Notes under the pieces: model-generated
What the model was told of the DNA's origin: nothing
Database searches by the model: none
Seen by the model: the letters and a program-made list of their open reading frames with translations, nothing else
Shown here: piece by piece, positions 532-13,269 of the stretch
Layout of the letters: every line of letters begins with the position of its first letter
How positions within the stretch are numbered: the stretch's first letter is position 1
Translations under genes and position numbers: made by a program
DNA from: a virus
Virus genome (UHGV): UHGV-0203667
DNA: 13,326 nt
Direction: 5' to 3' (one strand)

Positions 532-539
532 CCTACCAG

Positions 540-565: not shown

Positions 566-578
566 ATCCCTCAATTAA

Positions 579-707: not shown

Positions 708-1446
708 TTAATAAGCCTTTTCTCTATTTTTGTCAAATTTAACATACCCTAAAAAACTGCAAAATCTGGCTGCAAGATTATCTGCAGCTGGATTTCTTAC
801 ACCTCATTTTGTGGTATCACCCTGGCTAGTTTGTGCATAAATTGAACAGTTTTTAACATTTCCTCCTCACCTGGTAACCACACAAAAAGCTAAAAACGAG
901 GCACAGATAATCTTAGAGGCCTGTTTTCTTGTTATCACTCTGGAAACGCCGTAGAAGTGATTTTGATGAAAGATGACCTACCCTATTACACCCCTATTTT
1001 TTGTTATCACAATTGCATCCTGTGCGGTGTATGGCTATGTACTGAAAGCGGTTTTGGGTGTGGGTGTCAGAAATATCCATTAGCGGTATTAATACCTGTC
1101 AGATGTTCGTCTGAGGTGCCAGGCAGGCGCTCCCCTACCTCCCTTTTTTCTTCTAACAATTCTCAAATATCCGACCACTACTGACCACGTTGCTATTATG
1201 TTAATTCTTAAGCTTTGCTGTATGTTGTGCACATTATTTATTCAGGTGGCTGTACGTAAATTCTGTGCCCACTGATCATGATTTTTAAATCAGATTTTGT
1301 AGTGCGCTTTATTAGTGTAGATAAGATCTATTATGTTAAATGCAATTTTCCCAACCCTTCAAATCAATGACTTACGTGTAAGCATGCACTAACACCCCAC
1401 ACAGCACATTAGCCGTATAGATGGCTATACCCCACATATTTGATTG

Positions 1447-1469
1447 TTTTGTAGTCATTCCCCTGATCA
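1447..1469. repeat. Imperfect ~23-bp direct repeat TTTTG(T/C)AGTCATT..C..TGAT, copy 1 (copy 2 at 2177-2201); shares the CAGTCAT core also seen at 1974 and 2161
   Basis: Manual alignment of 1447-1469 with 2177-2201; CAGTCATACT occurs exactly twice (1972-1981 and 2161-2170). Confidence 0.4.
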
Positions 1470-2016
1470 TTTAACCAGTATAGCTTGTTATCTGCAGACC
1501 ACAAAATAGGAATTTACATCTGATTAACATAATCTGTTAGCATGATCACTATTACCCACACAACAATAACCCCATGTAAGCCTCTTCAGGCAATTTATCG
1601 GCGTGTTGGTGTGAACAGTCTTTCATGTTCTTTATGAATGCATTGTCCTGTGTGAGGGAAGGATGGACTGCCTCAGGGGCCATACTTATGATGCCCGGTC
1701 AACATAGCTATTGATAAAATCAACGGGTGTTGATCTACATATTTCCCACACATGAGAGGAAATCAGAGCAAAGAGAGAGGAGAGAGGTTTGTTAGTCACA
1801 TATGGTGATTTGAGCTCATCTCAAACCTTCTACGAAGGCCTTTGCTAGTCAAAATAGGTCAATTGACGGCTAATACAGAGTAAAAAATCAGATGCAATCA
1901 CTCCCCACCTGTTGGGATTAACGGCCCCGAGTCAAGGCCTATGCAACGAGGGTATTTCCTACAACCCCTTTCAGTCATACTCAGGCACCACACCCCGGTA
2001 AATATTACCCTACTAC

Positions 2017-2328
2017 CCCGGAAGATTTCTCCGCACTACCTGTAAAATATTTTTACTACTAACACCCTCGAGACGAGGGCTATTTGCACGAGTTTAACGC
2101 TCTCGGGAAGAGCTATAGGCGATTCTACCTGTGAAGAATTTTCACACCTGTGTGTTTATACAGTCATACTTTCCTGTTTTGCAGTCATTGCACCCATGAT
2201 ACACAGCCTCTAACTACTGAAGATTTCTCACTACTTAACCACCATACCTACCCACACCCCTGAGAATTTCTCACCACTACTACCGAAGATTTCTCACTAG
2301 TACCCCTGAGAATTTCTCACTCTAATAG
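2017..2328 (+). repeat. Iteron-like array: six copies of core GA(A/G)(A/G)ATTTCTCAC, the last three exactly 23 bp apart
   Basis: Cores at 2021-2033 (degenerate), 2133-2145 (degenerate, GAAGAATTTTCAC), 2219-2231, 2262-2274, 2285-2297, 2308-2320; each preceded by a C-rich tract (CCCC/CTACC). TGAGAATTTCTCA is itself a 6-bp inverted repeat. Confidence 0.6.
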
Positions 2329-2438
2329 ATAAAGGAATAGATCAATAAAAAGACCTCCCCCCTAACCCCCAGGGGGAATGGGGAGGGATCAGAGAGTGGG
2401 GAAGGTTTTCTAAGGGAAAAGCTTAACCCACAAATGAA

Positions 2439-2467
2439 AGCCTAAAGAGCATGAGCGACTCTTTAGG
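2439..2467. other. Strong hairpin: 10-bp stem GCCTAAAGAG / CTCTTTAGGC with 9-nt loop
   Basis: Perfect complementarity read from sequence; no flanking U-tract on the plus strand. Confidence 0.4.
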
Positions 2468-2839
2468 CAATCTGTGTGGGGTGACAATGTATTCCATACA
2501 TGACACGTCACCCAATTGTGTGTGGGGAGCGTAGTGCTATAGCACGTAGCTTTATAGTGTGGAGTCCGGATAAGAGACTTCTGTTTCCAATCCGGACCGT
2601 TTAAGCGAGTGGTTTCTCGCGCGGGTGCACGCACACATATATAAAGGATACACTCATAAATCGAAAATAAGGCCCCTAAATGGCCTTCTGGCTGCATTAA
2701 CCTGTGTGAGTAGTGCAATTGCATTACCTGACCTCTAAATCGCGTTAGAATCGATTTTAGAGCGCTTAAGGCAAAAGTGCTCTCCCTCCCTTGTGGACTT
2801 GCTTGTACCTATAGCACACCTAAATGATAATAATTCTCA

Positions 2840-2868
2840 TTGACAATTGGTTGACAATATGATAAGAT
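2840..2868 (+). promoter_or_regulatory. Candidate sigma70 promoter P0 (TTGACA, 17-bp spacer, TAAGAT) within a tandem TTGACAAT duplication
   Basis: -35 TTGACA at 2840-2845, -10 TAAGAT at 2863-2868; a second TTGACAAT at 2851-2858; sits about 35 nt upstream of the RBS of the small ORF at 2904. Confidence 0.35.
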
Positions 2869-2903
2869 TATAAATAGGGGGAGAAACAGATCCGGAGGTC
2901 AAT

Positions 2904-3182: not shown

Positions 3183-3398
3183 ATGGCAAGCAACGGACCG
3201 ACTAGCCCCCTGGTTAGCTGGACTACTGATGAGATCGTCGAAAACGTGCTCAGCGGCAAGTTTTATAAAAATTCTGTTTATGCTTTTATCCGTCGTAATA
3301 AAGGAAAATATCCACACATTGAAGCGGCAATTTTAGAACTGAACCGTCTTCGCCTTGAGCGTGAGCTGGCTAAATACACCAACAACATTGATAAATAA
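3183..3398 (+). CDS. Small hypothetical protein (71 aa), possibly regulatory
   Basis: SD AGGAGG at 3170-3175 with 7-nt spacing to ATG 3183; stop TAA 3396-3398; first gene after P1 and the attenuator. Confidence 0.75.
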   Translation: MASNGPTSPLVSWTTDEIVENVLSGKFYKNSVYAFIRRNKGKYPHIEAAILELNRLRLERELAKYTNNIDK

Positions 3399-3411: not shown

Positions 3412-4308
3412 ATGGCAAGTAATTACGGGGAGGTTTTTAATCCCCATTTCGAACGCCTCATTCAGTACACTTTTGATAAACCAGTAGCAACAACAATTGC
3501 TAATAAAAAGACTGGAAAAACAAAAGAGCGATTTAATTTAGACCTGATAGAGGTAACAATTTATGGAAAAATGGCAGGTTTTCATTTAAACGGGCAAGAA
3601 ATATTTATCTCAGAGCAGACCTTAGCAAAAATATGTGGTGTGAGTGATAGAAAAATCATCGAATCTATCAAAACTCTGGAAAATGCCGGGCTTATTTCTA
3701 AAGAAAGCCGGAAAGGTATGTCTAACATTTACAAACTGTTAATTACTCCTTCTCAAATCTGCAAAATGTGTGATGAACAGAAGATAGAACCAATGAGTAA
3801 TGCAGGTGGTGAAGATAAACAGCCTCAGGAAGCCCCAAAACAAGCCACACAGCAAGCTAAAAAGGCTAAAGTAGTGCAATTGCCTACCCAAGACACTAAA
3901 GCGCCTCAAATTAACGCTGTTAGTGACAAGCCACGCCGGGGCCGTCCTGTGAAAGATGTAACCGATGGGGGCTGGATTGTCCTGGGTGAGAGTGAAGCTA
4001 AAGATAGAATGCGCTCACTGTGGGAAAGCAAATACAAAGGTTTAAATAAACGTTGCCCGATCCGTTTGTCAAAGATTCAGGAGGATTTTTACACCACAGA
4101 GGAGGTAATACGCCATAAAGGCAATAGAGACGGTGAAATCTGGAAACCGGAAGAATACTGGCATTTAACCAGACCTGTTTTTATTTTTGCAAATAAACTT
4201 ATTGGGATGGGATTTGAAATATTGTTAGATCAAACTTACGGAGATTATCCTGAAATATTGTGGAGAAATGTTAGAAAGAATAAAAAAGGCATTTTAGAGT
4301 TTAGATAA
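3412..4308 (+). CDS. Winged-HTH DNA-binding protein with AT-hook-like linker (KPRRGRPVK) and a C-terminal domain of unknown function; putative replication initiator or regulator
   Basis: ATG 3412 after a GGGGG SD (the track's upstream TTG at 3355 has no RBS); N-terminal wHTH-like segment FISEQTLAKICGVSDRKIIESIKTLENAGLISKE; low-complexity linker EDKQPQEAPKQATQQAKKAK; 299 aa. Confidence 0.8.
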   Translation: MASNYGEVFNPHFERLIQYTFDKPVATTIANKKTGKTKERFNLDLIEVTIYGKMAGFHLNGQEIFISEQTLAKICGVSDRKIIESIKTLENAGLISKESRKGMSNIYKLLITPSQICKMCDEQKIEPMSNAGGEDKQPQEAPKQATQQAKKAKVVQLPTQDTKAPQINAVSDKPRRGRPVKDVTDGGWIVLGESEAKDRMRSLWESKYKGLNKRCPIRLSKIQEDFYTTEEVIRHKGNRDGEIWKPEEYWHLTRPVFIFANKLIGMGFEILLDQTYGDYPEILWRNVRKNKKGILEFR

Positions 4309-4587: not shown

Positions 4588-5076
4588 ATGTTCAAATCTG
4601 ATCTTTCTGATTCCCAATTTGAAAAACTGGTAGCACTGCAGAAATATCTCCCCAGTGATGATCAACCAACACGACAGGCCAAGCACTTATTAGTCGAGGG
4701 CTTTACCCCTGAATTCGTTGCGGAATACACAGGCGTTAAACTTGAGAAAGTCCAAAAACTATATGAAGAATCCTGGAATCCACGGTGTCGAGTTCCCCTC
4801 AGTGTCTATAACGAAATAGATAGAGATAGAAATGTCTTCGAAGATCGCCGCCGCAAATCTCTTTTAATGTGGAATTGCGGGATGAATATTGAAGAGATAG
4901 CAAAAGAATTAAAAGTAACCTGCTTTCATGTCTGGGGCTTGTTGAGCGACCTCCTGCCACGTAAGGAGCTTAATCAACGTTTGCCTAAGCCCGGTAGTCG
5001 TGCTTATCGCGAATTTATATTCATCTACCGCCGCCATAGAAATAAAGTCCAGAAAGCAATGGCCCAGAAAGCCTGA
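4588..5076 (+). CDS. Putative DNA-binding protein with two HTH-like segments (162 aa)
   Basis: SD GGAGA at 4576-4580, ATG 4588; HTH-like stretches LLVEGFTPEFVAEYTGVKLEKVQKLY and MWNCGMNIEEIAKELKVTCFHVWGLL; basic C-terminus. Confidence 0.75.
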   Translation: MFKSDLSDSQFEKLVALQKYLPSDDQPTRQAKHLLVEGFTPEFVAEYTGVKLEKVQKLYEESWNPRCRVPLSVYNEIDRDRNVFEDRRRKSLLMWNCGMNIEEIAKELKVTCFHVWGLLSDLLPRKELNQRLPKPGSRAYREFIFIYRRHRNKVQKAMAQKA

Positions 5077-5116: not shown

Positions 5117-5159
5117 CCCCTTCCGGGGCTTGACGTTGTCAAGGCCGCAGCTATGCGGC
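5117..5159 (+). promoter_or_regulatory. Three consecutive hairpins (CCCC-ttcc-GGGG; CTTGAC-gtt-GTCAAG; GCCGCA-gcta-TGCGGC), copy 1 of a conserved structured element (copy 2 at 12577-12622)
   Basis: Read from sequence; lies 20 nt upstream of ATG 5180 in the 4588/5180 intergenic region; copy 2 keeps both stems through compensatory changes. Confidence 0.5.
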
Positions 5160-5179
5160 TCTAATTTAAGGAATTCCAA

Positions 5180-5623
5180 ATGTCTCAAATCGCTAAATTA
5201 TTATCCCAGGTTATCAAAGCTATCGACGCTGAAGATTCAAAAGTTCGCCAGGATCTTTTAGATGGCAAGTTTACCAACACCCTGGCATTTACCCGTGACA
5301 AAGAGCACTTCTTAAAGCACAGACATCACGCTTTCGCTGAATGCAAGTCCGCTAATGGTGATGTTTTCTATGTCGATTTGGTGGTTATGGCATGTAGATT
5401 GTGGATGATTCAGGACCTTATGCGCCAACACGGTGATGATCCTTTTATCAGCATGTGGAACAGCGCCCAGGATGGCTTTGTGATTGCTGCCTTATCCAAA
5501 TCCATGATTGAGGCAGAAGGCGCAAGCCTTCAGAACATGGCAGATCTCTTTGAAATAAGCGTAGGAATGATGCAGACCATGCTGCAGGCGGTGAAGCCTC
5601 TCAAACTGGTTAATCTTGCTTAA
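5180..5623 (+). CDS. Hypothetical protein (147 aa), first gene of the tape-measure operon
   Basis: SD AAGGAA at 5168-5173 with 6-nt spacing to ATG 5180; predicted largely helical; no family recognised. Confidence 0.8.
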   Translation: MSQIAKLLSQVIKAIDAEDSKVRQDLLDGKFTNTLAFTRDKEHFLKHRHHAFAECKSANGDVFYVDLVVMACRLWMIQDLMRQHGDDPFISMWNSAQDGFVIAALSKSMIEAEGASLQNMADLFEISVGMMQTMLQAVKPLKLVNLA

Positions 5624-5683
5624 GCTATTGATAAATAAGCACTCCCCATTTTTTGGGGGGTGCATCAATGAGAGGGTATGCCT

Positions 5684-6118
5684 ATGAATATTGAAGAAAT
5701 GATAGTTGAATTCGAAGAGGGTGATTTCCTGGAAGAAGGGGAGTTTAAATACTCCCGTTTTAAACAGGCGTTATTTAGCAGCGATGATAAACCCCACGTT
5801 AGTGATCTTAACGACGATGATTTATGTCGCTGGGTATGCACCCGCTTATATGAAGATGGAAAGTATACAGGCCAAAACTTTCCAAATCTCTATTTCAAAG
5901 CACAAACATTTGAGGAAGGGCAAAGAGTGAAAAACCTGGTCGATAAAATGCTGTCAGCCGGATATTTGCATAAAGAATTATTAAATCCTAAAGCTGAAAG
6001 CAAGCGCCATTATATTTTTGTGTGGTCTGTGGGGGATAAGTGCCCACTGCATGGGAGTCCTTCCAGGACCTTAGCTAAAGCTAAGCCCGTTGGGTCTGTT
6101 AAGCGTAAAGGCAAATGA
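5684..6118 (+). CDS. Hypothetical acidic protein (144 aa), positioned like a tail assembly chaperone
   Basis: GAGAGGG SD with 7-nt spacing to ATG 5684 (the track start at 5678 is only 1 nt from the SD); acidic N-terminus; ends with basic tail KRKGK; 2 genes upstream of the tape measure gene. Confidence 0.7.
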   Translation: MNIEEMIVEFEEGDFLEEGEFKYSRFKQALFSSDDKPHVSDLNDDDLCRWVCTRLYEDGKYTGQNFPNLYFKAQTFEEGQRVKNLVDKMLSAGYLHKELLNPKAESKRHYIFVWSVGDKCPLHGSPSRTLAKAKPVGSVKRKGK

Positions 6119-6119
6119 T

Positions 6120-6305
6120 ATGAATACCTACGAAAAGATTTATCAAAAATTAAAAAGTGATAACAATGCTCCCGTCATCAAGGGCGGGGCTTCTTCCTCT
6201 GGTGACCTCTCAATCGAAGAGCTTGCGGAGAAATATAATATTGATAAAGAGGCCCTGAAAAGGGCTATTTCATTATCAAAATCTTTAAGACAGGGCGAGG
6301 TGTAA
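6120..6305 (+). CDS. Small hypothetical protein (61 aa) immediately upstream of the tape measure gene
   Basis: ATG 6120 directly after the stop of the previous gene (TGA 6116-6118); its frame is open from 6075, overlapping the previous gene's 3' end; stop 6303-6305, 3 nt before the tape-measure ATG. Confidence 0.55.
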   Translation: MNTYEKIYQKLKSDNNAPVIKGGASSSGDLSIEELAEKYNIDKEALKRAISLSKSLRQGEV

Positions 6306-6308
6306 GAG

Positions 6309-8411
6309 ATGGCAATGAAGGAAGTCGCCAGACTAACAAACGTTATTTACTGGGACTCTGATAAATCCTCCTGGCGAAAAGAAGTTAAGCGCTTGGAGGA
6401 TTATAAAAAATCCTGGAAGAAAGCTACCGACGATATAGCTAAAGCGGATTTTAAATCTAATCAGGCTGTGCTCAGAACACAAAGAACACGCGCTAAGGTG
6501 GAAGAGCAGATCGCCAGAGCACAGAAGAAACAACGTGCTCAGGCTGTCAGCCGTCTGACCGGGGGCAATAATCCGGAGCTCTCCTCTATGCGCAAGTTCT
6601 ATCAGCAGCAAGCCAGAGAGGCCGCCAGACAACAAAAACTGTTAGATCGTAGTGTTGGAGATGTTCAGCACAGAAAAGCACGTGTAGGGGCCAACAGTGC
6701 ACGAATCAGCAGCATGTTTGATGGCTCCCTGGTTGCTCAGTTCCAATCCAGAATTCAAAGAGTTAATGCTGATTATGCTAAAGGGGCTATTAACCTGCAG
6801 ACCTATAATCAGAAAATGGCCCGACTCAGATCTGAAATGAAGATGGCAACAGCAGAGGCCGGAAAATTTCAGAGCAAACTGGATAGAGTTGCGATCACAG
6901 GATCTAAGCTGCATGACAACCTGGGGAAACTAAATTCTACTTTAGGCAAGATAGCTATTGGCCTTACTGCCGCTGGCTGGGGTGTTCAGCGTGCTGTTAG
7001 TGGTGCTATGGGTAGCCTTGCAGATCGCAACAGTGCCTACTTCGGTTTGATGGCACAGAACAAGGATGATAAAGCCAAGACTGATCAGCAGATGGCCTAC
7101 GTCAAAAGAATCTCTTATGACTACGGGATGGATCAGCGTGAGACCGAAGGCGGTTTTATGCGCTTTGCTGCAGCCACACCGAGCATAGAAGAGAAAGATA
7201 AACAGGCTCTTTTTGAGGCTATGGCTATTAAAGGTCGCTCAGTGGGTGCTACCGCAGACCAACAGAACAGGGCTATCGTTGCACTAGGGCAAATATATAG
7301 CAAGGGCGGTCGGGTGTATGCGGAAGAGCTTAAGGGCCAACTTTCTGAAGCCCTGGCAGGTTCTCAGGTAGATTTCACTAAGGCCGCTATCGATGCCGGA
7401 GTCATCAAGAAAGAGGAAGAATTTAATAAAGCCCTTGAAGATGGCAAGATCACCATGGATAAGCTTCTCCCTTCTTTGGTGAAAATCTGGTCTGCAGCCA
7501 AGAATACGAAAGCCTTTGCTGAATCCATGAAACAGCCAGAAGTAGCAATGCAGCGCATGAAAAACAGCTTTAACGAGCTGGCGATTCAGTTTATGGGTGT
7601 TGTGGATCCTGCCGATGGCGTTGTTAGCTTATCTGAATCTCTGATCTCCATCTTCGAAGACCTCACCACTGATATGGACGGCAGCGGGAGCGCGGCAAAA
7701 CAGTTTGGTGAAGCAGTCGGTGCTGCCATGCGGGAGATCATGTATTGGGTAGGCTTCGCTAAGGGATATATCGAGGTCAAGGCTAAAGAGTTCGGCATGA
7801 CCGGATCAGAGGTTGGCGAGCTTATCGGGAAACTAGTAGTCGGCTTAGCTGGTCTGAAAGTTATTACCACACTGCTTTCCCCTCTAACCGGATTTGTTTC
7901 ACTTGTCACCCAACTGATAGCCTTGTTAGGTAAAATCCCTGGTATGAGCAAGCTTATGGCATCTGCCTCAGGTGGAACGGCAACAGGAGCAGCAGTTATC
8001 AGTGCAGGCTCTAACGCTGAAAGAAGCTTCATTGATGGCAAGACGCAGGAAATGAGTAAGGAGAACTCAAAACAGGGTGCTTTGTTTGAGCTGGGAAGAT
8101 TTGTCAGCAATGCTGGCGCACTGTTCACACCTGGCGGTGATACTGGTCCTTTGTTCGATCAGGTCAAAGGCTGGTTTAATAAAGGGCCAACATTGACAGT
8201 AGACACTGGCATCAGACCAACACCAACGGGTGGCATAGCTATCCAGAATGGTGGATATCAACCAGTCCAAGTAAATGTAGCCCCACAAGGTGAGATTTCC
8301 GGCAAATGGGAGATAACCATCGATGAGGGGGGAATTGCCAGGGTGATCCAGAAGGAAGTCAGCGATCAGTTGGATTGGAAAGCCACACAGGAATCTAACC
8401 AGCTTTTCTAA
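6309..8411 (+). CDS. Phage tail tape measure protein (700 aa)
   Basis: SD GAGGTG with 7-nt spacing; charged coiled-coil-like N-terminus; motif ALGQIYSKGGRVYAEELKGQLSEALAGSQ, recalled as the conserved tape-measure motif; central hydrophobic segment (LIGKLVVGLAGLKVITTLLSPLTGFVSLVTQLIALLG); Gly-rich C-terminal part. Confidence 0.8.
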   Translation: MAMKEVARLTNVIYWDSDKSSWRKEVKRLEDYKKSWKKATDDIAKADFKSNQAVLRTQRTRAKVEEQIARAQKKQRAQAVSRLTGGNNPELSSMRKFYQQQAREAARQQKLLDRSVGDVQHRKARVGANSARISSMFDGSLVAQFQSRIQRVNADYAKGAINLQTYNQKMARLRSEMKMATAEAGKFQSKLDRVAITGSKLHDNLGKLNSTLGKIAIGLTAAGWGVQRAVSGAMGSLADRNSAYFGLMAQNKDDKAKTDQQMAYVKRISYDYGMDQRETEGGFMRFAAATPSIEEKDKQALFEAMAIKGRSVGATADQQNRAIVALGQIYSKGGRVYAEELKGQLSEALAGSQVDFTKAAIDAGVIKKEEEFNKALEDGKITMDKLLPSLVKIWSAAKNTKAFAESMKQPEVAMQRMKNSFNELAIQFMGVVDPADGVVSLSESLISIFEDLTTDMDGSGSAAKQFGEAVGAAMREIMYWVGFAKGYIEVKAKEFGMTGSEVGELIGKLVVGLAGLKVITTLLSPLTGFVSLVTQLIALLGKIPGMSKLMASASGGTATGAAVISAGSNAERSFIDGKTQEMSKENSKQGALFELGRFVSNAGALFTPGGDTGPLFDQVKGWFNKGPTLTVDTGIRPTPTGGIAIQNGGYQPVQVNVAPQGEISGKWEITIDEGGIARVIQKEVSDQLDWKATQESNQLF

Positions 8412-8423
8412 TATTGTGATCTA

Positions 8424-8439
8424 AATCAATAAGTTAGCC
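8424..8439. repeat. 16-bp direct repeat AAATCAATAAGTTAGC, copy 2 (copy 1 at 692-707)
   Basis: Exact match to 692-707; begins 13 nt after the tape-measure stop codon. Confidence 0.6.
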
Positions 8440-8462
8440 TGACCGGATAAACTCCAGGCAAG

Positions 8463-8493
8463 AAAAAAGCCCCTAAGTGTTAACAAAGGGGCT
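8463..8493 (-). terminator. Intrinsic terminator for the leftward head operon (AGCCCCT / 12-nt loop / AGGGGCT followed by UUUUUU on the minus strand)
   Basis: 7-bp stem 8468-8474 / 8487-8493; A6 on the plus strand (8463-8468) gives a U-tract on the minus-strand RNA; the plus-strand side lacks a U-tract. Confidence 0.55.
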
Positions 8494-8523
8494 CTTCTCC
8501 GGTATCCTTTTGATGCGGGGCAA

Positions 8524-8571
8524 AACCTGCTAACAAAAATCAACCTCTCGCGAGACTAATGTTAGCAGGTT
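8524..8571. repeat. Perfect 12-bp inverted repeat AACCTGCTAACA ... TGTTAGCAGGTT with 24-nt spacer containing palindrome TCTCGCGAGA
   Basis: Arms 8524-8535 and 8560-8571 are exact reverse complements; inner palindrome 8546-8555; the spacer carries a degenerate copy of the AAATCAAC(C/T)TCTCGC motif. Confidence 0.55.
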
Positions 8572-8913
8572 GCCGGAAGGTAAGTCAACTCCGGCCTATA
8601 AACCTTAAAGCGACTATAAAATTGCCCCGCCAATTGTGATGATCCGACCTTTGAGGCGGGTCCGGTGCCCAGGGGGTGCAGTGATGCACAAACCAGGCAA
8701 CGATAAACAGGCTAACAGTGATAGCGGCGCTCTCTCAGCGCACTAAATCCTAACCAGTCCGGGAAAGAGGCTGGCTCTATCGACCGCTCATGCACGGGAC
8801 AATGCATACCTGATAAAGGATTCTCACAAGGGACCAATCGCGAGAAAAGAAGTGGAAAGGGGCTGATTTGTGGTGTATCACTACGGCCTCAAAAGACACC
8901 CTATTGCCTTTTT

Positions 8914-9372
8914 TCAGCCTCTCCCCACATTTGACCAGTATTTGATTGCACCGATCAAATCATCATAGTGGCGCATTGCATCATTGAAGCCTTTATAGCT
9001 TGCCCATTGTGGGGAAACCTTGTTGTTGCTGAATTGCCCACTAATCAGGATAGTCTCCAGAATGTCGGCGTATCGCTTGCCAATTCGCTTCCTGACGGCC
9101 TCAGAGCTCCCACCCTTTACGATTGCATTAATCAGGGCTTTTGTGTGTCTCAGGCTCTCATAGAGCATTGCAGCGTGGGCAGATTCCATAAAGGAGCGCT
9201 TAGGCAGATCACCCCACCCCTCAGAATGAATTGCTGCCAATGTGGCGTAATTCAGGCCGCTATAGTGTTTCCCGTCATCCCAGCCAACCGCTACACCTTC
9301 CATCTGTGAGAGCTCTTTATGCAGCTTATCCATCATGCGCTTGTCTATGGTGCAACGGACTTTCGGACTCAT
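8914..9372 (-). CDS. Hypothetical phage virion morphogenesis / head-tail joining protein (152 aa); family not verified
   Basis: Last gene of the leftward structural operon; start ATG overlaps the stop of the upstream gene (ATGA), suggesting translational coupling. Confidence 0.7.
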   Translation of the reverse strand: MSPKVRCTIDKRMMDKLHKELSQMEGVAVGWDDGKHYSGLNYATLAAIHSEGWGDLPKRSFMESAHAAMLYESLRHTKALINAIVKGGSSEAVRKRIGKRYADILETILISGQFSNNKVSPQWASYKGFNDAMRHYDDLIGAIKYWSNVGRG

Positions 9373-10181
9373 TTGTTGATCTCCGTGATGTCATCAAGCA
9401 ACATGTTGGCCTTATCAATCATCGTTTCGTGGAACTCATTCGACACGACAGACTTATCACCTGCTGCAATCTTTCCCGCTGCCTCTCCCTGTGCATATTC
9501 CCCGCGATGCTTAGCCCTGGTTGATTTCGTAGCAGCATTGCCAGCGTTACTACCCTCTTTAGCACTGTTAACAGCACCCTTTTGCTGTGTTTTATTCACC
9601 TTCTTACTGTTAGTGAAAACTCCGGCATTTTCGACCATCTTCACCTTGAAGGTGCGGAATTCTTCAAAAGTGCAATCAATAGTGATGCAGTCGCCAGAGG
9701 AAGAGCTACGCTTAACTTCACATTTCGTCATGATGAAGTTCTCAAGGAGTCCGACATCTTCACCCACCAGGCTGATAATCTGGCGCTTGTCTCTCATTTC
9801 CATAAGTGCCTGAACAGCGGCAGCAGGGCGCATAGATTCACGGGGATTATCTGGATCAGTGTTCCGGTCGATGTAGTTCTCTTTCCGGATGATATGAGGG
9901 GAAGAGGTAATAATACCCGTAAAGCTGACAGATTTATCTTTAATGACGGCATGGTCTGACATGGTGGTGCCATCCTCGACCGCATAGCTCGATTTCTCAA
10001 CAGGGAACGAATAGCTGACATCAGAGATAGAGTCAAAGAAGATAGCCACATTATCGGTATAGTTGAAGCCATCCATCATATTTTTGTTTTGTGAATATCC
10101 CCCACACATAACAGTGAATGCAGGAGATCTCGACTCAGCTTGTTTTGCAGCTGTCAGAGCATCACTAGCCATATTAAACAT
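9369..10181 (-). CDS. Hypothetical phage structural protein (270 aa) with Lys/Ala/Gly-rich low-complexity C-terminal half
   Basis: In the head operon downstream of the major capsid gene; GGAGG lies 1 nt before ATG 10181 and 10 nt before the in-frame ATG 10172, so the true start may be 10172. Confidence 0.7.
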   Translation of the reverse strand: MFNMASDALTAAKQAESRSPAFTVMCGGYSQNKNMMDGFNYTDNVAIFFDSISDVSYSFPVEKSSYAVEDGTTMSDHAVIKDKSVSFTGIITSSPHIIRKENYIDRNTDPDNPRESMRPAAAVQALMEMRDKRQIISLVGEDVGLLENFIMTKCEVKRSSSSGDCITIDCTFEEFRTFKVKMVENAGVFTNSKKVNKTQQKGAVNSAKEGSNAGNAATKSTRAKHRGEYAQGEAAGKIAAGDKSVVSNEFHETMIDKANMLLDDITEINK

Positions 10182-10246
10182 GCCTCCAAATTGAATCTTT
10201 TGGTGGCCCTGTGTGAATTCTGATAAAAAGACAGGGCTATCTATCG

Positions 10247-10498
10247 TTATTTTGCAAAACGATTATGCGCATTCAGGGCTTTTTTGCGGTCCTGGGCTTG
10301 TTTGCGTGCAATAAAATGTTCGAAAGTCTCGGCCCAGGTGCATTTATTATATTCACGGTATTTGTGCATAGCCTGGCGGCTAACTTGATAGACAGATGCG
10401 AATGTGGAGATACGCAGGAATTCCGGCAGATCCTCGTCATCGATATGGATAATATCAAAAGGCACGTCATCACGGTCGCCGTATAAAACAATTTTCAT
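10247..10498 (-). CDS. Small hypothetical protein (83 aa) with an HTH-like stretch (LRISTFASVYQVSRQAMHKY)
   Basis: ATG 10498 with SD GAGGTG at 5-nt spacing (the track's GTG at 10507 lacks an RBS); lies between the major capsid gene and the 270-aa gene. Confidence 0.6.
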   Translation of the reverse strand: MKIVLYGDRDDVPFDIIHIDDEDLPEFLRISTFASVYQVSRQAMHKYREYNKCTWAETFEHFIARKQAQDRKKALNAHNRFAK

Positions 10499-10534
10499 AA
10501 AAGACACCTCAAAAACTTAAGACGGGGATAACAA

Positions 10535-10584
10535 AAAAGGGAGGAGGGAAAGACCTACCCACAATCTCCCACCTCTTCCCTTTT
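10535..10584 (-). terminator. Terminator-like or attenuator hairpin just downstream of the major capsid gene (G/C-rich imperfect stem with T-tracts on both sides)
   Basis: GGGAGGAGG (10539-10547) pairs with CCTCTTCCC (10572-10580), with one non-Watson-Crick position; T-runs flank it on both strands; large loop, so probably partial termination only. Confidence 0.3.
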
Positions 10585-10587
10585 CTT

Positions 10588-11631
10588 TTATTTAGCCTTG
10601 GCTTTTGCCAGAGCAGCGGCGGCGGTGTTTTTAACACTCACTTTAACCACCACCTCGGGCATCATATTCATAAATGCGTATGAGCTCTCGCAAAAGACCT
10701 CGCGCTTAGCTCTTGAATCTTGCATATACATGAAAGCTTCACGTGCAGCGCCGTTTGCCAGCTGCAGATTGCGAGCGCAAGGGCCAAAAAATTGAGTATA
10801 AACACCCATATCGCCCAGTGCATAAGGCTGGAATTGTGGGACCAGATAAGCAGTATTCTCTGGCAGACTATCCATTTGCACCACACGCAGGGCTAAGCCC
10901 GGAATGCGGAAGGTCGGGAAGCCCGGCAGAATATCCTCAGGGAACATCAGACCTTTGTCGGTAATGTTCTGATTGCCGAACAACAGCACTTTACGAAGCA
11001 GCTCGTCAGTCTGAATTGCAGCAAAGAGTTCAGCACGGCAGAACAGGGTGAAACCACGCAGGGCACGAACGACACCACGCTGTTTAACCTTGCTCAGTGC
11101 AACCAGGTCCTGCAGCTGTTTAAGGATATCTTGAGCTAGATCCACTTCAGAGGTGGACTGTTCTACTCCCAGCAGTTCGCACACATTCAGTTCTTTACCC
11201 TTGGTGAGGATAATTTTGTTCTCAAAGAGAGCAAGCTGGCGTGCTTCTTCGTGGGTCTGGCGTAAGCCTTCGCCAAGCTGAATAACACGACGAGCGGTTA
11301 CAGACTCTAAATTCTCTTCGGAATCTTTGCCCGGAACACGGATACCTTGCCAGTCTGACGGGAATATGGCCGAGCTGGCGGCTGTAAAGGCCATGTCGCC
11401 CGTGCCCGTTTCACGCTCATCTGCGGTAATGGTAGCCATCTGTTCACCGTAGCGCGGATACTGACCGAAAGCGGTTTGTTTCACCCTGCGAACTTTGTCG
11501 TACTCAAATTTGAACGTCGAAGAATAGACGGTAGTATTAAACACGTTCATTGCTGAAATAATCTGGTTATCCAGCGGGATATCTTTAATCAGACCACACA
11601 GATCGCGAACTTCGAATTCTTTCTTAGCCAT
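10588..11631 (-). CDS. Major capsid protein, lambda gpE-like (347 aa)
   Basis: Perfect SD AAGGAGG 6 nt upstream of ATG 11631 (the track's longer N-terminal extension is discounted); size about 340 aa; segments recalled as resembling lambda gpE (RRVIQLGEGLRQTHEEARQLA ~ RRRIIMQNMRDEELAIAQVEE; C-terminal REAFMYMQDS...PEVVVKV ~ AREFTMIQSAP...DEFVSV); preceded by a decoration-sized gene. Confidence 0.7.
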   Translation of the reverse strand: MAKKEFEVRDLCGLIKDIPLDNQIISAMNVFNTTVYSSTFKFEYDKVRRVKQTAFGQYPRYGEQMATITADERETGTGDMAFTAASSAIFPSDWQGIRVPGKDSEENLESVTARRVIQLGEGLRQTHEEARQLALFENKIILTKGKELNVCELLGVEQSTSEVDLAQDILKQLQDLVALSKVKQRGVVRALRGFTLFCRAELFAAIQTDELLRKVLLFGNQNITDKGLMFPEDILPGFPTFRIPGLALRVVQMDSLPENTAYLVPQFQPYALGDMGVYTQFFGPCARNLQLANGAAREAFMYMQDSRAKREVFCESSYAFMNMMPEVVVKVSVKNTAAAALAKAKAK

Positions 11632-11642
11632 TTTCAACCTCC

Positions 11643-11978
11643 TTATTGTGCAACACGCAAATCGCCATTGCTGGCAGCAACAACAGCGGCTAAGCCGTCT
11701 TTGTCCACATAGGCCGGATTGATGTAGCAACCTTTGTTCGCAACAACGATAAAGGAATCACCAACTTCAGCACGTTCTACAACCAGCAGCGGAGTTTTAT
11801 CGGTGTGCGTTGCTTTAACGAAGGTCTCAACCTCGCCAGCCTCAGTCACCACAACAACAGTGCCAGCCGGAATCTCAGCCTTAACTTTGTTTTTAACTTC
11901 AACGTCGCGAATACTAAATTGCTCATCTGCGGCGTATGAAATGATGTGTCCGCGTGTGCGGATAGTCATATCTCTCAT
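11643..11978 (-). CDS. Head decoration-like protein (111 aa), first gene of the head operon
   Basis: SD AGGTGA 5 nt upstream of ATG 11978; size and position immediately upstream of the major capsid gene match the lambda gpD arrangement; no sequence-level similarity to gpD confirmed. Confidence 0.6.
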   Translation of the reverse strand: MRDMTIRTRGHIISYAADEQFSIRDVEVKNKVKAEIPAGTVVVVTEAGEVETFVKATHTDKTPLLVVERAEVGDSFIVVANKGCYINPAYVDKDGLAAVVAASNGDLRVAQ

Positions 11979-12458
11979 TTGATCACCTGCGATTTAAATT
12001 AACTCCCCTCAAAGGGCTCAGGTATAACCTCTCAAACCACGACAGGCTCGGGCCGAAAAGTTATGCCGGAAATCTAAAGGGGGATTGATATAAGGAGAGG
12101 GAGATAGCCCCGCACCGTCCAAGCGGGGGCTATTCCATATGGGGAAAACCAACAACAGTTGGCTGATAGTTCACTGCATGGTTACGGTTGCTAGAGAGCA
12201 CTATCACGAAAGGCACTCCCCCGAATCAGTTCAGGCTGCGGTCACATCAGCGGGGAAATACCTTTCGGGATAGCTACCCACACCGAAAACCCGCAAAAGA
12301 AAACTGTGTGGATAACTAGCCCAATAGGAGAATTAATCGACCACTCTAAGATGATCAGGGTAGTGTTATTTATAAGGCGGCACCGCTACCTGGTCGCCGT
12401 TACTTTGGAGGAAAATACGGCAAATCACCTTCGCTAAATGATTCACGGTATACTGTAT

Positions 12459-12487
12459 ATTATATCAGTATTTACTCACATTGTCAA
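12459..12487 (-). promoter_or_regulatory. Consensus sigma70 promoter P2 for the leftward head operon: TTGACA, 17-bp spacer, TATAAT on the minus strand
   Basis: Minus-strand -35 is the complement of 12482-12487 and -10 the complement of 12459-12464; 22 of 29 positions identical to P1 (3031-3059); leaves a ~470-nt untranslated leader before ATG 11978. Confidence 0.6.
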
Positions 12488-12576: not shown

Positions 12577-12622
12577 CCTGCTTTGCAGGCTTGGCACACA
12601 GCCAAGGTCGCAGCTATGCGAC
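12577..12622 (+). promoter_or_regulatory. Three-hairpin element copy 2 (CCTGC-ttt-GCAGG; CTTGGC-acaca-GCCAAG; GTCGCA-gcta-TGCGAC)
   Basis: Same three-stem architecture as 5117-5159; stem 2 differs by A>G paired with T>C, stem 3 by C>T paired with G>A; loop GCTA conserved. Confidence 0.5.
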
Positions 12623-12629
12623 TCCTATC

Positions 12630-12660
12630 ATCTATCATAACTTTTTCATTCGTGATAGAT
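12630..12660. promoter_or_regulatory. 8-bp inverted repeat ATCTATCA / 15-nt spacer / TGATAGAT, candidate operator
   Basis: Arms 12630-12637 and 12653-12660; lies between the three-hairpin element and the small rightward genes; ATCAAT repeats nearby (12544-12558, 12671-12682). Confidence 0.3.
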
Positions 12661-12757
12661 ATCTTTTGATCAATATCAATGTTTTCCTGGGATTTGCCCG
12701 GCTATAGTTCGAATCAAGGAAGGGGAGCATTGATAGCACCAAAACCGAACAAACAAA

Positions 12758-12772
12758 TCAACTTCTCGCAAA
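12758..12772 (+). promoter_or_regulatory. Conserved leader motif TCAACTTCTCGCAAA directly 5' of the SD of the 12784 gene (identical copy at 13301-13315)
   Basis: 15-nt exact repeat; both copies are followed by an SD-like sequence (AAAGGTGA / AAAGGGG); the TCTCGCAAA core also lies in the P1 spacer (3038-3046). Confidence 0.45.
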
Positions 12773-12783
12773 AGGTGATAGTT

Positions 12784-12906
12784 ATGGGTATCAAGAACAG
12801 TGCCAGCGCATGGCAAAAGGCCAGGTTTCATCACCCACACATTGTTAAGGCAATTGAGGTGGTTGGAGTGTTAGCCCTGATGTTAGCTCTGTGTGTGGAG
12901 GTGTGA
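12784..12906 (+). CDS. Small peptide (40 aa) with hydrophobic C-terminal segment, predicted membrane peptide
   Basis: SD AGGTGA at 12772-12777, 6-nt spacing to ATG 12784; MGIKNSASAWQKARFHHPHIVKAIEVVGVLALMLALCVEV; the track ORF starts earlier (12679) but has no RBS there. Confidence 0.45.
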   Translation: MGIKNSASAWQKARFHHPHIVKAIEVVGVLALMLALCVEV

Positions 12907-13008
12907 GATGGGCAAAGGAGGCAAAGCATTTTTTAATAGGTCTGGCTATCCTGGATGTTCTACTAATCATGATTGAGCGGAGTTTATGAACAGCATTGAG
13001 AGGAGTTT

Positions 13009-13269
13009 ATGACGGGGGCTAAAGATATCAGGAGACTGAGGGAAGAGCTGATAGCTGAAATTAAAGCTAAGGCAAAGCAAATGGAGATAGCCGCGCAAAT
13101 GGATGTAGCGGAACAGATGTACAAGATGGTTGAAGAGGGAACACCACGACAGGTTATCGCTAAAACCTTCGGTGTGGGGATCGCCACCGTGCACAGAAGG
13201 CTGAAAGCCTATGCCGACTACCACAACATTGAGAGAGGGGAGGATGGGAGATTTAAGAAGAATAAATAG
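13009..13269 (+). CDS. Small DNA-binding protein (86 aa): coiled-coil-like N-terminus plus C-terminal HTH of the Hin/resolvase or sigma region-4 type (TPRQVIAKTFGVGIATVHRRLK)
   Basis: SD GAGAGGAG before ATG 13009; preceded by a tandem-duplicated RBS-ATG unit and an 8-codon upstream ORF whose stop overlaps the start (ATGA). Confidence 0.75.
   Translation: MTGAKDIRRLREELIAEIKAKAKQMEIAAQMDVAEQMYKMVEEGTPRQVIAKTFGVGIATVHRRLKAYADYHNIERGEDGRFKKNK

What the first reader, a model, noticed from the sequence alone, without database searches (positions are those of the whole stretch)
5180..11978. Atypical structural-gene architecture: tape measure protein without neighbouring tail genes, convergent with a head operon lacking portal, protease and terminase
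The tape-measure operon (5180-8411) has no recognisable tail tube, sheath, distal tail or baseplate gene on either side and is bundled with regulator-like genes. The head operon starts at its own promoter with the decoration-like gene and major capsid protein; no portal, protease, scaffold or terminase lies upstream within the window. In typical tailed phages these genes are contiguous and co-directional. The pattern fits either a phage satellite that supplies a subset of virion proteins to remodel a helper's particle, or a mosaic or lytic phage with unconventional modules. A parasitic element encoding its own tape measure (tail-length determinant) would be noteworthy. This is a hypothesis: the family calls rest on motif recall and context, and the window covers only part of the element.
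Basis: inference. Interest (0 to 1): 0.6.

Follow-up and report, generated by a model that had tools for sequence, protein, structure and literature searches.

The report
Plasmid carrying capsid and tail-core genes
The window is a complete 13.3-kb circular E. coli plasmid that keeps only four virion-type genes (capsid, tape measure, tail-tube initiator and one morphogenesis factor), all distantly related to large virulent rV5-like phages, so it is most likely an undescribed plasmid-borne phage satellite.

Summary
The gene calls are right. 6309-8411 is a tape measure protein and 10588-11631 a major capsid protein, in convergent operons, with no portal, protease or terminase.

Two statements are wrong:
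- The "head operon" also carries a tail-tube initiator (9369-10181) and an rV5-gp056-like morphogenesis gene (8914-9372).
- The window is not a fragment. It is a whole circular plasmid, found in 7 of 5426 complete E. coli genomes and never on a chromosome.

All four proteins have their only phage relatives in Vequintavirinae (rV5-like, about 137-kb virulent myophages). They are under purifying selection (dN/dS 0.00-0.27). The same gene set recurs in at least four deep lineages of 13.2-14.9-kb circles.

Best reading (0.55, inference only): a plasmid-resident phage satellite that supplies its own capsid shell and tail core and takes everything else from an rV5-like helper. No paper in the searched library describes it. 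The closest described things are the Vibrio satellite-plasmids, which lack tail genes.

Also found: a conserved, roughly 470-nt structured-RNA candidate between the two operons.

The parts
1..531 (+). Variable accessory gene (176-aa predicted membrane protein). It is the last gene of the small-ORF/HTH/ORF1 operon.
   Evidence: ORF, with no family match. Only 82-83% aa identity in 4 plasmids and replaced by unrelated genes in the others. In deeper lineages the same place holds T5orf172/MUG113 nuclease-like genes or a resolvase.
532..2900 (.). 2.3-kb gene-free region. It contains the ORF1 terminator (538-558), 11-bp repeats (561-611), a conserved block (600-1800), iteron-like 21-23-bp repeats (2213-2322) and a hairpin-rich stretch (2340-2640).
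   Evidence: No ORF of 50 aa or more except one 75-aa GTG ORF, and no CDS annotated in any of 8 plasmids. Repeats. Conservation is 0.92-0.97 for 600-1800 but 0.27-0.36 for 1801-2200. Fold z-scores are near 0 for 740-2240 and -7.5 for 2340-2640.
3183..3398 (+). 71-aa core protein of unknown function upstream of rep.
   Evidence: Present in all lineages at 35-86% identity. dN/dS 0.18-0.32.
3412..4308 (+). Replication initiator (winged-helix, phage O / plasmid Rep-like). It is swapped between otherwise similar backbones.
   Evidence: PF13730 HTH_36 at 1.4e-7. PHROG replication-initiation families down to 1.5e-10. 42-91% aa identity among plasmids whose structural genes are 92-100% identical.
4588..5076 (+). 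162-aa core DNA-binding protein with two helix-turn-helix units.
   Evidence: Weak HTH matches. 41-57% identity in all lineages. AlphaFold model pLDDT 79, all-helical. Only generic HTH/sigma/KorA-like fold matches, none significant.
5127..5161 (+). Promoter-like site with a palindromic operator (GCCGCAGCTATGCGGC) in front of the TMP operon. A second copy lies at 12590-12624.
   Evidence: Direct repeat D19 at 91% identity. Sequences read. The function is inferred.
5180..5623 (+). 147-aa protein of unknown function, first gene of the TMP operon.
   Evidence: No family match. dN/dS 0.02-0.27. Present in the W and L013 lineages, weakly in L023.
5678..6305 (+). Two small genes (146 aa at 5678-6118; 61 aa at 6120-6305) immediately upstream of the TMP. 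They sit where tail assembly chaperones sit in Vequintavirinae.
   Evidence: Sizes and position match rV5 gp051/gp050 (157 and 82 aa). No sequence or profile similarity was found. The 61-aa protein has a weak UPF0122 HTH match at 1.9e-4, below the cut-off.
6309..8411 (+). Tape measure protein, 700 aa.
   Evidence: Family and structure matches. Aligns end to end with the Certrevirus TMP (aa 9-795 of 810) at 25% identity. dN/dS 0.07-0.27.
8440..8913 (-). Conserved structured-RNA candidate (about 470 nt) downstream of the last gene of the - strand operon. It ends in an intrinsic terminator at about 8480->8445.
   Evidence: 98-99% identity among close plasmids and 90% to L013. Alignable to lineages whose proteins are 40-57% identical. 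107 pairs, 14 of them with compensatory changes. 94.6% of cells paired against 35-45% in slid controls. MFE z -4.6 for the sense strand and -2.9 for the antisense. No Rfam family.
8914..9372 (-). Homologue of rV5 gp056 (PHROG label 'tail completion or Neck1'). It is the most constrained protein of the element.
   Evidence: phrog_222 at 8e-29. 45-49% identity to Vequintavirinae. hhalign probability 100%. 99-100% aa identity among plasmids (5 of 7 comparisons identical, 2 at 99.3%) with dS 0.11-0.21. The family is absent from the solved phiTE and phi92 virion chains, while its gene neighbours match adaptor, head completion and tail terminator.
9369..10181 (-). Tail-tube initiator (Dit-like), 270 aa.
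   Evidence: PF21821 at 7e-25. phiTE tube initiator 9cuy_K at 4e-34. 49-51% identity to rV5-like phages, whose BASEL annotation is 'tail tube initiator'. dN/dS 0.06-0.14.
10247..10507 (-). 86-aa core protein of unknown function between the MCP and the tube initiator.
   Evidence: No family match. Present in all lineages that carry the MCP, at 32-51% identity. dN/dS 0.17-0.24.
10588..11631 (-). Major capsid protein, 347 aa (start at MAKKEF).
   Evidence: Matches. Only 30 relatives among 1.84 billion cluster representatives, the nearest at 42% and 31% identity. dN/dS 0.09-0.15.
11643..11978 (-). 111-aa core protein, first gene of the head operon. It sits where the Vequintavirinae head decoration gene sits.
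   Evidence: Position. No sequence or profile similarity. AlphaFold failed. dN/dS 0.06-0.20. 43-65% identity in other lineages.
11979..12487 (-). Head-operon promoter (12487->12459, perfect consensus) and a leader of about 470 nt.
   Evidence: Promoter. Positions 12201-12400 are 98.8% conserved. Fold z -3.9 for 11979-12279 on the - strand.
12590..13269 (+). Second copy of the promoter/operator (12590-12624), a small hydrophobic ORF (12785-12906) and an 86-aa HTH protein (13009-13269). The HTH protein is the candidate repressor.
   Evidence: PF02796 HTH_7 at 3.5e-6. Repeat D19. Sequence read. The regulatory role is inferred.

Best explanation
WHAT IT IS. The window is the full genome of a small iteron-type plasmid of E. 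coli that behaves as a phage satellite (a 'satellite-plasmid').

IN THE RESTING STATE. It replicates with its own Rep protein and keeps its two convergent morphogenesis operons quiet. The shared palindromic operator and the HTH proteins are the candidate switch.

DURING HELPER INFECTION. When a large virulent myophage of the rV5 type (Vequintavirinae or a close relative) infects the cell, the plasmid expresses:
- its own capsid protein with two small head-operon proteins;
- its own tape measure protein with the tube initiator that encloses the tape measure's C-terminus in the baseplate hub;
- a gp056-like morphogenesis factor.

Everything else must come from the helper: portal, protease/scaffold, terminase, adaptor, head completion, tail terminator, tube, sheath, baseplate and fibres.

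OUTCOME. Chimeric particles form with a small head sized for 13-15 kb. They carry the plasmid to new cells, at the helper's expense.

SHOWN: the gene identities, completeness of the replicon, selection, conservation across lineages and the link to Vequintavirinae.
INFERRED: induction, packaging, small capsids, transfer and the identity of the helper.
For: (1) The replicon is complete and always extrachromosomal. Nine circular plasmids of 13.2-13.7 kb are 91-93% identical over 81-95% of the window. One record is rotated so that the window's end joins its start. Matches occur in 7 of 5426 complete E. coli genomes, with 0 chromosomal places.

(2) Exactly four genes have phage structural homologues, and all four point to one phage group:
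- MCP, 25% identity;
- TMP, 25% identity, end to end;
- tube initiator, 49-51% identity;
- gp056-like, 45-49% identity.
The group is Vequintavirinae. In IMG/VR the tube-initiator family occurs only on 84-148-kb contigs, of which the ~50%-identical top hits match the Vequintavirus size (~137 kb); their taxonomy was not checked.

(3) The element is not decaying. dN/dS is 0.00-0.05 for gp056-like, 0.06-0.14 for the initiator, 0.09-0.15 for the MCP and 0.07-0.27 for the TMP. There are no pseudogene remnants of other virion genes.

(4) The same architecture and core gene set recur in at least four deep lineages (MCP 38-51% identical between them). These sit on circular contigs of 13.3-14.9 kb, a narrow size range as expected under a capsid-volume limit.

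(5) The proteins that must dock onto helper parts stay as close to the phage versions as the phage genera are to each other: initiator and gp056-like are 30-45% identical to the phage versions. The shell and the ruler have diverged far: 18-29% to the phage versions, although the phage genera are 32-90% identical to each other for these two proteins.

(6) In the phiTE virion the tube initiator forms the first hub ring, and the TMP C-terminus lies in the cavity it helps enclose (PMC11972413). The plasmid therefore carries a physically interacting pair.

(7) There is a variable cargo locus, as in known satellites.

(8) G+C is 43-45%, matching rV5-like phages at 44%.

(9) Plasmid-borne capsid-encoding satellites have a precedent in Vibrio (PMC13230959).
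Against: - There is no evidence of encapsidation, induction or transfer.
- No element of this family was found in IMG/VR.
- No terminase small subunit, pac or cos site was recognised. No DNA similarity to any phage was found.
- A capsid protein only 25% identical to the helper's would have to assemble on a foreign portal with a foreign scaffold and protease. This has no described precedent: capsid-forming satellites carry their own portal and protease.
- Why a satellite would need its own tape measure is unexplained. Its length (694-755 aa) is near the phage range (about 765-810 aa).
- The gp056 family is not a modelled virion component, so its role is unknown.
- A 30-kb variant with a resistance transposon inside the TMP gene persists as a plasmid. 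Plasmid life therefore does not depend on the structural genes.
- The helper could be an unknown phage rather than Vequintavirinae.
Confidence: 0.55

Rival explanations
1. Anti-phage defence plasmid without transfer. The capsid, tape measure, initiator and gp056-like proteins act as dominant-negative mimics. They co-assemble with and poison the head and tail assembly of invading rV5-like phages, protecting the population. The plasmid itself is not packaged.
For: The homologues sit at the divergence where co-assembly with, but malfunction of, phage parts is conceivable. They are under purifying selection. No packaging function was recognised. Tail-assembly interference is a known defence strategy (PMC11364771, listed). 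The plasmid is non-mobilizable yet found worldwide.
Against: No PADLOC family matches. A full-length, strongly constrained capsid protein with two conserved partner genes is more than a decoy needs. The narrow 13.2-14.9-kb size across deep lineages has no explanation under pure defence. Known satellites also interfere with helpers, so interference alone would not separate the two readings.
Confidence: 0.17
2. Satellite of a different, still unsequenced helper. This could be a temperate or virulent myophage whose capsid is much closer to the plasmid's MCP. The Vequintavirinae would then be only the nearest sequenced cousins.
For: The MCP and TMP are only 18-29% identical to Vequintavirinae. The MCP family is almost empty in a library of 1.84 billion representatives: 30 hits, the nearest at 42% and 31%. 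The deeper lineages come from metagenomes of unknown host.
Against: No phage genome in GenBank/INPHARED or IMG/VR holds closer homologues of any of the four proteins. The best initiator matches are precisely E. coli Vequintavirus (49-51%). G+C matches.
Confidence: 0.15
3. Cryptic remnant of a phage or phage-plasmid that has lost most genes and survives only as a plasmid. The structural genes would then be leftovers.
For: The element replicates as a plasmid. One variant tolerates a transposon in the TMP gene.
Against: Strong purifying selection acts on all structural genes. The identical minimal set recurs in at least four lineages separated by 50-60% protein divergence. There are no pseudogene remnants. 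Gene order is not that of the phages: the initiator and gp056-like genes are fused to the head operon and the TMP lies on the opposite strand.
Confidence: 0.05

Closest known systems
PISP and cf-PISP, phage-inducible satellite-plasmids of Vibrio crassostreae (PMC13230959, 2026)
   Same: Small circular extrachromosomal elements (11-16 kb) with plasmid replication functions and no integrase. They carry their own capsid protein; PISP's is of the PF03864 capsid-E family, as are the MCPs of this family's other lineages. They were proposed as satellites from genomics alone.
   Different: The Vibrio elements lack tail genes. They carry a protease and a small terminase (PISP) or a full capsid module with portal, protease, adaptors, HNH and terminases (cf-PISP), plus ParA. 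The E. coli element has no portal, protease, terminase or ParA. It has a tape measure, a tube initiator and a gp056-like gene instead. The authors found no relatives outside Vibrio.
Capsid-forming PICIs (cf-PICIs)
   Same: Satellites that build their own small capsids and take tails from a helper. Genome size is similar.
   Different: cf-PICIs are chromosomal islands with an integrase and a complete capsid and packaging module. They have no tail genes, and their helpers are temperate phages of about 40 kb. None of the defining extra genes is present here.
PLE of Vibrio cholerae (satellite of the virulent myophage ICP1)
   Same: A small element of roughly 13-18 kb exploiting a large (about 126-137 kb) virulent myophage. 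Small capsids are expected.
   Different: PLE is integrated. It has no capsid protein of its own and remodels ICP1's coat with TcaP. It has no tape measure and no sequence relation.
Vequintavirinae structural module (rV5, phiTE, PVP-SE1)
   Same: Four homologous proteins: MCP, TMP, tube initiator and gp056.
   Different: The phages have about 25 further head, neck, tail and baseplate genes in one co-directional block, and genomes ten times larger. The plasmid's gene order is rearranged into two convergent operons.

Membership tests
Phage satellite (functional class) | Lacks a complete set of virion and packaging genes, so it cannot form particles alone | tested here: met
   The whole replicon was read. 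Only the MCP, TMP, tube initiator and gp056-like genes are present, with no portal, protease, terminase, tube, sheath or baseplate.
Phage satellite (functional class) | Packaged and transferred in particles made with a helper phage's proteins | not testable with these tools
   No experimental or virome evidence. The family is absent from IMG/VR scans.
Phage satellite (functional class) | Genome size constrained to a narrow range | tested here: met
   13.2-14.9 kb in every complete copy across at least four lineages. The one 30-kb exception has a transposon inside the TMP gene.
Satellite-plasmids PISP / cf-PISP (Vibrio) | Extrachromosomal circular replicon with its own replication genes and no integrase | tested here: met
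   Circular plasmid records, a Rep gene plus iteron-like repeats, and no integrase. No ParA is present.
Satellite-plasmids PISP / cf-PISP (Vibrio) | Capsid protein plus protease and small terminase (PISP), or a full capsid module (cf-PISP); no tail genes | tested here: not met
   An MCP is present, but no protease, portal or terminase. Tail genes (TMP, tube initiator) are present.
cf-PICI / PICI | Integrase and chromosomal att-flanked island; AlpA/Stl-type regulation; TerS; portal, protease and connectors for cf-PICI | tested here: not met
   Never chromosomal: 0 of 12 places. No integrase, TerS, portal or protease family match.
P4-like satellites | Integrase, alpha primase-helicase, and sid/psu/delta genes | tested here: not met
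   No PHROG, Pfam or NCBIfam match of these kinds for any product.
Phage-plasmid | A plasmid that encodes a complete phage (virion, packaging, lysis) | tested here: not met
   13.3 kb with four structural homologues only.
Tape measure protein (PF20155 TMP_3) | Match above the Pfam gathering score; long helical protein aligned with known TMPs | tested here: met
   54.5 bits against a cut-off of 41. phiTE TMP at 2.4e-19. End-to-end alignment with the Certrevirus TMP.
Tail-tube initiator / Dit-like (PF21821) | Match above the gathering score and to a structurally defined tube initiator | tested here: met
   88 bits against a cut-off of 24.2. phiTE chain 9cuy_K 'Tube initiator protein' at 4e-34.
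HK97-fold major capsid protein (capsid-E type, PF03864) | Full-length homology to known MCPs; the fold itself | tested here: inconclusive
   Sequence homology is met: phrog_29 at 2e-22, hhalign 98.5%, and lineage relatives hit PF03864. The window's own protein does not reach PF03864. No structure model was made.
'Tail completion / Neck1' (phrog_222) | Being a component of the neck or tail end of the virion | tested here: not met
   The family matches phrog_222 at 8e-29. No chain of the solved phiTE or phi92 virions matches it, even by profile, while its gene neighbours match adaptor, head completion and tail terminator. The label is unverified.
Head decoration protein (Vequintavirinae DEC) | Homology or shared fold with the decoration protein encoded upstream of the MCP | tested here: inconclusive
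   Same position and similar size. No sequence or profile match. The AlphaFold model is unusable (pLDDT 41.5).

The most novel reading that the evidence does not exclude
[quoted passage not shown] They would build chimeric virions from a satellite-made capsid shell and a satellite-made tail core (tape measure plus tube initiator) on helper-made portal, neck, tube, sheath and baseplate. That would be the first satellite known to encode a tape measure. It also carries a new structured RNA of about 470 nt conserved across its lineages.
Probability: 0.4. Interest if true: 0.85.

Novelty: new variant of a known kind. Interest (0 to 1): 0.78.

Why it matters
If correct, this matters for four reasons.

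- It extends phage satellites in E. coli to a plasmid lifestyle and to large virulent helpers.
- It shows a new division of labour. The satellite makes the capsid shell and the tail's inner core, and steals the portal, neck, tube, sheath and baseplate. That would require heterologous assembly of a capsid protein on a foreign portal and scaffold, which is a testable structural question.
- rV5-like phages are common in biocontrol and therapy cocktails against E. coli O157 and other pathogens. A resident element that hijacks or blocks them would affect efficacy, and could move plasmids, including resistance cargo, between strains.
- It would explain how one group of 'non-mobilizable' plasmids spreads worldwide.

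The conserved RNA is a separate lead for RNA biology.

Tried and rejected
DNA AND COLLECTION SEARCHES
- Megablast and sensitive blastn of the whole window, the 2.9-kb gene-free region and the RNA region against 50,697 phage genomes found nothing related.
- Rfam at a permissive threshold gave only a sub-threshold ctRNA match. ARAGORN found no tRNA.
- MCP peptide patterns found no relative in IMG/VR or in GTDB species representatives. The RNA motif found none in IMG/VR or GTDB.
- rV5-like DNA is absent from 5426 complete E. coli genomes, so there is no co-resident helper.

PROTEIN-LEVEL SEARCHES
- The idea that the missing virion genes survive as pseudogenes was rejected. tblastn of 27 Vequintavirinae structural clusters gave only the four known hits.
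- Profile-profile comparison of the 111-aa, 86-aa, 146-aa, 61-aa, 147-aa and 162-aa proteins against every Vequintavirinae structural cluster gave nothing at 30% probability or more.
- PADLOC and NCBIfam found no defence system or named family among the unknown proteins.

STRUCTURE PREDICTION
- The AlphaFold model of the 111-aa protein was unusable.
- The 162-aa protein folded well, but Foldseek against the PDB and BFVD gave only generic HTH matches, so a small-terminase role is unsupported.

OTHER
- The first hhalign run timed out.
- RNA structure in the conserved 740-2240 block was rejected, with z near 0.
- Seven paper searches (full text of the held library) found no description of these plasmids; the only hit to an accession was the genome paper that deposited NZ_CP043822.

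Full report
WHAT IS IN THE WINDOW

The 13,326-base window holds about 16 genes in three transcription blocks.

- A + strand block runs from about 2,840 to 8,411. It holds two consensus-like promoters, a 71-aa gene, a replication initiator (3412-4308; PF13730 and phage O-like PHROGs) and a 48-aa ORF. It continues with a 162-aa double helix-turn-helix protein and then 5180-5623, 5678-6118, 6120-6305 and the 700-aa gene 6309-8411.
- A - strand block runs from a perfect sigma-70 consensus promoter at 12487->12459. It passes through a 470-nt leader, then 11643-11978, 10588-11631, 10247-10507, 9369-10181 and 8914-9372.
- A short + strand block (12590-13326 and on to 531) holds a small hydrophobic ORF, an 86-aa HTH protein and a variable membrane protein.
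- Positions 532-2900 have no gene.

CHECKING THE OBSERVATION

The two key family calls hold.

- The 700-aa protein is a tape measure protein. It scores above the Pfam cut-off for PF20155 and matches phrog_5255 at 6e-154. It also matches the phiTE tape measure chain 9cuy_W at 2.4e-19. It aligns end to end with the Certrevirus TMP.
- The 347-aa protein is a major capsid protein: phrog_29 at 2e-22; tblastn covers 96% of rV5-like MCPs; hhalign probability is 98.5%.
- No portal, protease, scaffold or terminase is present, not even as remnants.

- First, tail genes do lie next door. 9369-10181 is a Dit-like tail-tube initiator. It hits PF21821 at 7e-25 and the phiTE tube initiator 9cuy_K at 4e-34. 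It is 49-51% identical to the protein that BASEL Vequintavirus genomes call 'tail tube initiator'. 8914-9372 is 45-49% identical to rV5 gp056.
- Second, the window is not a fragment (next section).

THE WINDOW IS A WHOLE PLASMID

Megablast found no phage. It did find five PLSDB plasmids and seven RefSeq E. coli plasmids (nine distinct records: eight of 13.2-13.7 kb and one 39.6-kb record). They are 91-93% identical over 81-95% of the window.

In CP148565.1 the record is rotated, so that the HTH gene at the window's end is followed 57 bases later by the gene at the window's start. NZ_CP043822.1 is a head-to-tail trimer.

All 12 matching places in 5426 complete genomes are on plasmids and none on a chromosome. 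Hosts are human, chicken, cattle and feral pig isolates from Chile, South Africa, Japan, China and the USA. PLSDB types them as non-mobilizable.

The 'missing genes just outside the window' explanation is therefore excluded.

LINK TO ONE PHAGE GROUP

All four structural homologues have their phage relatives in Vequintavirinae. These are virulent myophages of about 135-148 kb: rV5, FV3, phiTE and PVP-SE1. Profile-profile comparison against 27 structural gene clusters from four genera found exactly these four pairs and nothing else.

A profile scan of IMG/VR with the tube-initiator family returned 17 loci, all on contigs of 84-148 kb.

The identity matrices are informative.

| Protein | Plasmid family vs phages | Between plasmid lineages | Between phage genera |
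|---|---|---|---|
| Tube initiator and gp056-like | 28-45% | 30-56% | 34-63% |
| MCP | 18-29% | 37-51% | 50-90% |
| TMP | 19-24% | 28-43% | 32-58% |

The parts that would have to dock onto phage components have stayed within the phage range. The shell and the ruler have gone their own way.

The MCP is very isolated: 30 hits among 1.84 billion cluster representatives, the nearest at 42% and 31%.

A caveat on one label. The gp056 family carries the PHROG name 'tail completion or Neck1'. However, no chain of the solved phiTE or phi92 virions matches it, even by profile. Its gene neighbours in a Certrevirus match the phiTE adaptor, head completion and tail terminator chains, and phi92 gp126, gp128 and gp129. 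It is therefore probably an assembly factor or an unresolved component, not an established neck protein.

In phiTE the tube initiator forms the first ring of the inner hub. Three copies of the TMP C-terminus lie in the cavity it helps enclose (PMC11972413). The plasmid's TMP and initiator are therefore a physically interacting pair.

NOT A DECAYING REMNANT

Pairwise dN/dS against seven close plasmids and one deeper lineage:

| Gene | dN/dS |
|---|---|
| gp056-like (99-100% aa identity among the close plasmids, dS 0.11-0.21) | 0.00-0.05 |
| Tube initiator | 0.06-0.14 |
| MCP | 0.09-0.15 |
| TMP | 0.07-0.27 |
| 111-aa gene | 0.06-0.20 |

Searching 5.8 billion proteins with the initiator gave a continuum from 97% down to 42% identity. 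Most of these hits lie on contigs under 21 kb, the complete ones 13-15 kb or 19-20.5 kb; one cluster at 45% identity sits on a 91.7-kb contig.

Complete elements from further lineages repeat the layout. They are L013 (13,275), L020 (13,895), L021 (13,870), L022 (14,576), L023 (13,971) and L024 (14,348). L020, L022 and L023 have terminal overlaps that indicate circles. The shared layout is:

111 aa - MCP - ~75 aa - initiator - ~150 aa, converging on TMP - ~80 aa - ~120 aa - ~160 aa - Rep.

The genes present in every lineage are the 71-aa protein, the double-HTH protein, TMP, gp056-like, initiator, the 86-aa protein, MCP and the 111-aa protein.

The replication protein and the iteron region are swapped between otherwise near-identical backbones. 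The locus at 1-531 is a variable cargo site.

MECHANISM PROPOSED

The best reading is a plasmid-resident satellite. The steps below are inferred unless marked otherwise.

- It maintains itself with Rep and iterons.
- It holds two morphogenesis operons under its own HTH proteins. A palindrome, GCCGCAGCTATGCGGC, overlaps the -10 region of two promoters, at 5127-5161 and 12590-12624.
- On infection by an rV5-like phage it makes its own capsid shell and the tail's inner core.
- It takes the portal, protease/scaffold, terminase, neck, tube, sheath, baseplate and fibres from the helper.
- The constant 13-15-kb size fits a small head.

The gene content, completeness, selection, lineage conservation and phage affinity are shown. 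No pac site or small terminase was recognised. The well-folded 162-aa protein gave only generic HTH fold matches. The 111-aa 'decoration-like' protein could not be classified.

The chief difficulties are two. A 25%-identical capsid protein would have to assemble with a foreign portal and scaffold. And the purpose of a satellite-encoded tape measure of near-helper length is unexplained.

RIVALS

- A defence plasmid whose mimics poison phage assembly without being packaged. It cannot be excluded and is partly compatible with the satellite reading.
- A satellite of an unsequenced helper.
- A cryptic remnant. This is disfavoured by selection and by lineage conservation.

COMPARISON WITH KNOWN SYSTEMS

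The closest described things are the Vibrio satellite-plasmids PISP and cf-PISP (PMC13230959). They are episomal, 11-16 kb, carry their own capsid protein and were proposed from genomics. But they lack tail genes, carry a protease and terminase (or a whole capsid module) and were not found outside Vibrio.

cf-PICIs, PICIs, P4 and PLE are integrated elements with different hallmark genes, none of which is present here.

Seven paper searches found no description of these plasmids; the one accession hit was the genome paper that deposited NZ_CP043822.

I therefore rate it a new variant of a known kind.

SIDE FINDING

The roughly 500-nt spacer between the convergent operons is the best-conserved DNA of the element.

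- It is 98-99% identical among close plasmids and 90% identical to L013.
- It is alignable to lineages whose proteins are only 40-57% identical, with compensatory changes in several hairpins.
- On the - strand it ends in a strong intrinsic terminator.
- RNAalifold gives 107 pairs, 14 of them with double changes.
- 94.6% of cells pair, against 35-45% when partners are slid. No shuffle in 500 reaches the covariation score.
- MFE z is -4.6 for the sense strand and -2.9 for the antisense.
- Only five sequences from two deep branches support it, so it is a candidate, not a proven RNA. No Rfam family matches.

VERDICT

| Item | Verdict |
|---|---|
| Observation | partly confirmed |
| Confidence in the satellite-plasmid reading | 0.55 |
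| Interest | 0.78 |

Noticed in passing
window 8440-8913 (- strand): Candidate new structured RNA of about 470 nt. It lies downstream of the gp056-like gene and ends in an intrinsic terminator. It is the best-conserved DNA of the element and shows compensatory base changes across lineages. It has no Rfam family and no match in phage genomes.
   Followed up: partly
window 600-1800: A 1.2-kb gene-free block that is 92-97% identical among eight plasmids, better conserved than synonymous sites of the genes (dS 0.1-0.4). It shows no RNA-structure signal (z near 0), and only short islands are conserved in the deeper lineage L013. Its function is unexplained.
   Followed up: partly
window 1801-2322 and 3412-4308: The replication protein (42-91% aa identity) and the iteron-like repeat region (27-36% column conservation) are exchanged between backbones whose structural genes are 92-100% identical. 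This suggests replicon or incompatibility swapping.
   Followed up: partly
window 1-531; L009:333-920, L011:4284-4994, L022:3382-3912, L024:1736-2344: A variable cargo locus after the HTH gene. It holds unrelated membrane or unknown proteins in different plasmids, and T5orf172/MUG113 nuclease-like proteins (weak match to the PADLOC candidate PDC-S57) or a resolvase in deeper lineages.
   Followed up: partly
L003 (NTNY01000053.1, 30,105-bp E. coli contig): A variant of the plasmid carries an insertion of about 16.7 kb holding aminoglycoside phosphotransferase (APH) genes, a TetR-family regulator gene and an IS. The insertion lies inside the tape measure gene, leaving a 622-aa N-terminal part and an 87-aa C-terminal part. 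The RNA region is intact.
   Followed up: partly
L016 (DAPOFX010000052.1, 19-kb E. coli contig) and the contigs of P0047-P0053: A second kind of small element (19-20.5 kb) carries tube initiator, TMP and gp056-like genes co-directionally, together with an HNH endonuclease and a Lambda_Kil-like gene. No recognisable capsid protein lies in the 16 kb that were read.
   Followed up: no
window 5127-5161 and 12590-12624: Two copies of a promoter-like sequence share the palindrome GCCGCAGCTATGCGGC over the -10 region. One lies in front of the TMP operon and one in front of the operon that encodes the 86-aa HTH protein. They form a candidate common operator.
   Followed up: no
window 12755-12775 and 13298-13318: A near-identical 21-nt motif (AAATCAACTTCTCGCAAAGG) lies directly upstream of the start codons of two small membrane-protein genes. 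It may be a shared translation-initiation or regulatory element.
   Followed up: no
L002 (NZ_CP043822.1, 39,610 bp): This record is a head-to-tail trimer of the element. One copy shows broken reading frames. It may be a real multimer or an assembly artefact.
   Followed up: no
L017:11987-12448, L006:14509-14973 (rV5 gp056 family): The phage family that PHROGs and RefSeq label 'tail completion or Neck1 protein' is absent from the deposited phiTE and phi92 virion models. Its flanking genes encode the modelled adaptor, head completion and tail terminator. The label is probably wrong or at least unverified.
   Followed up: yes
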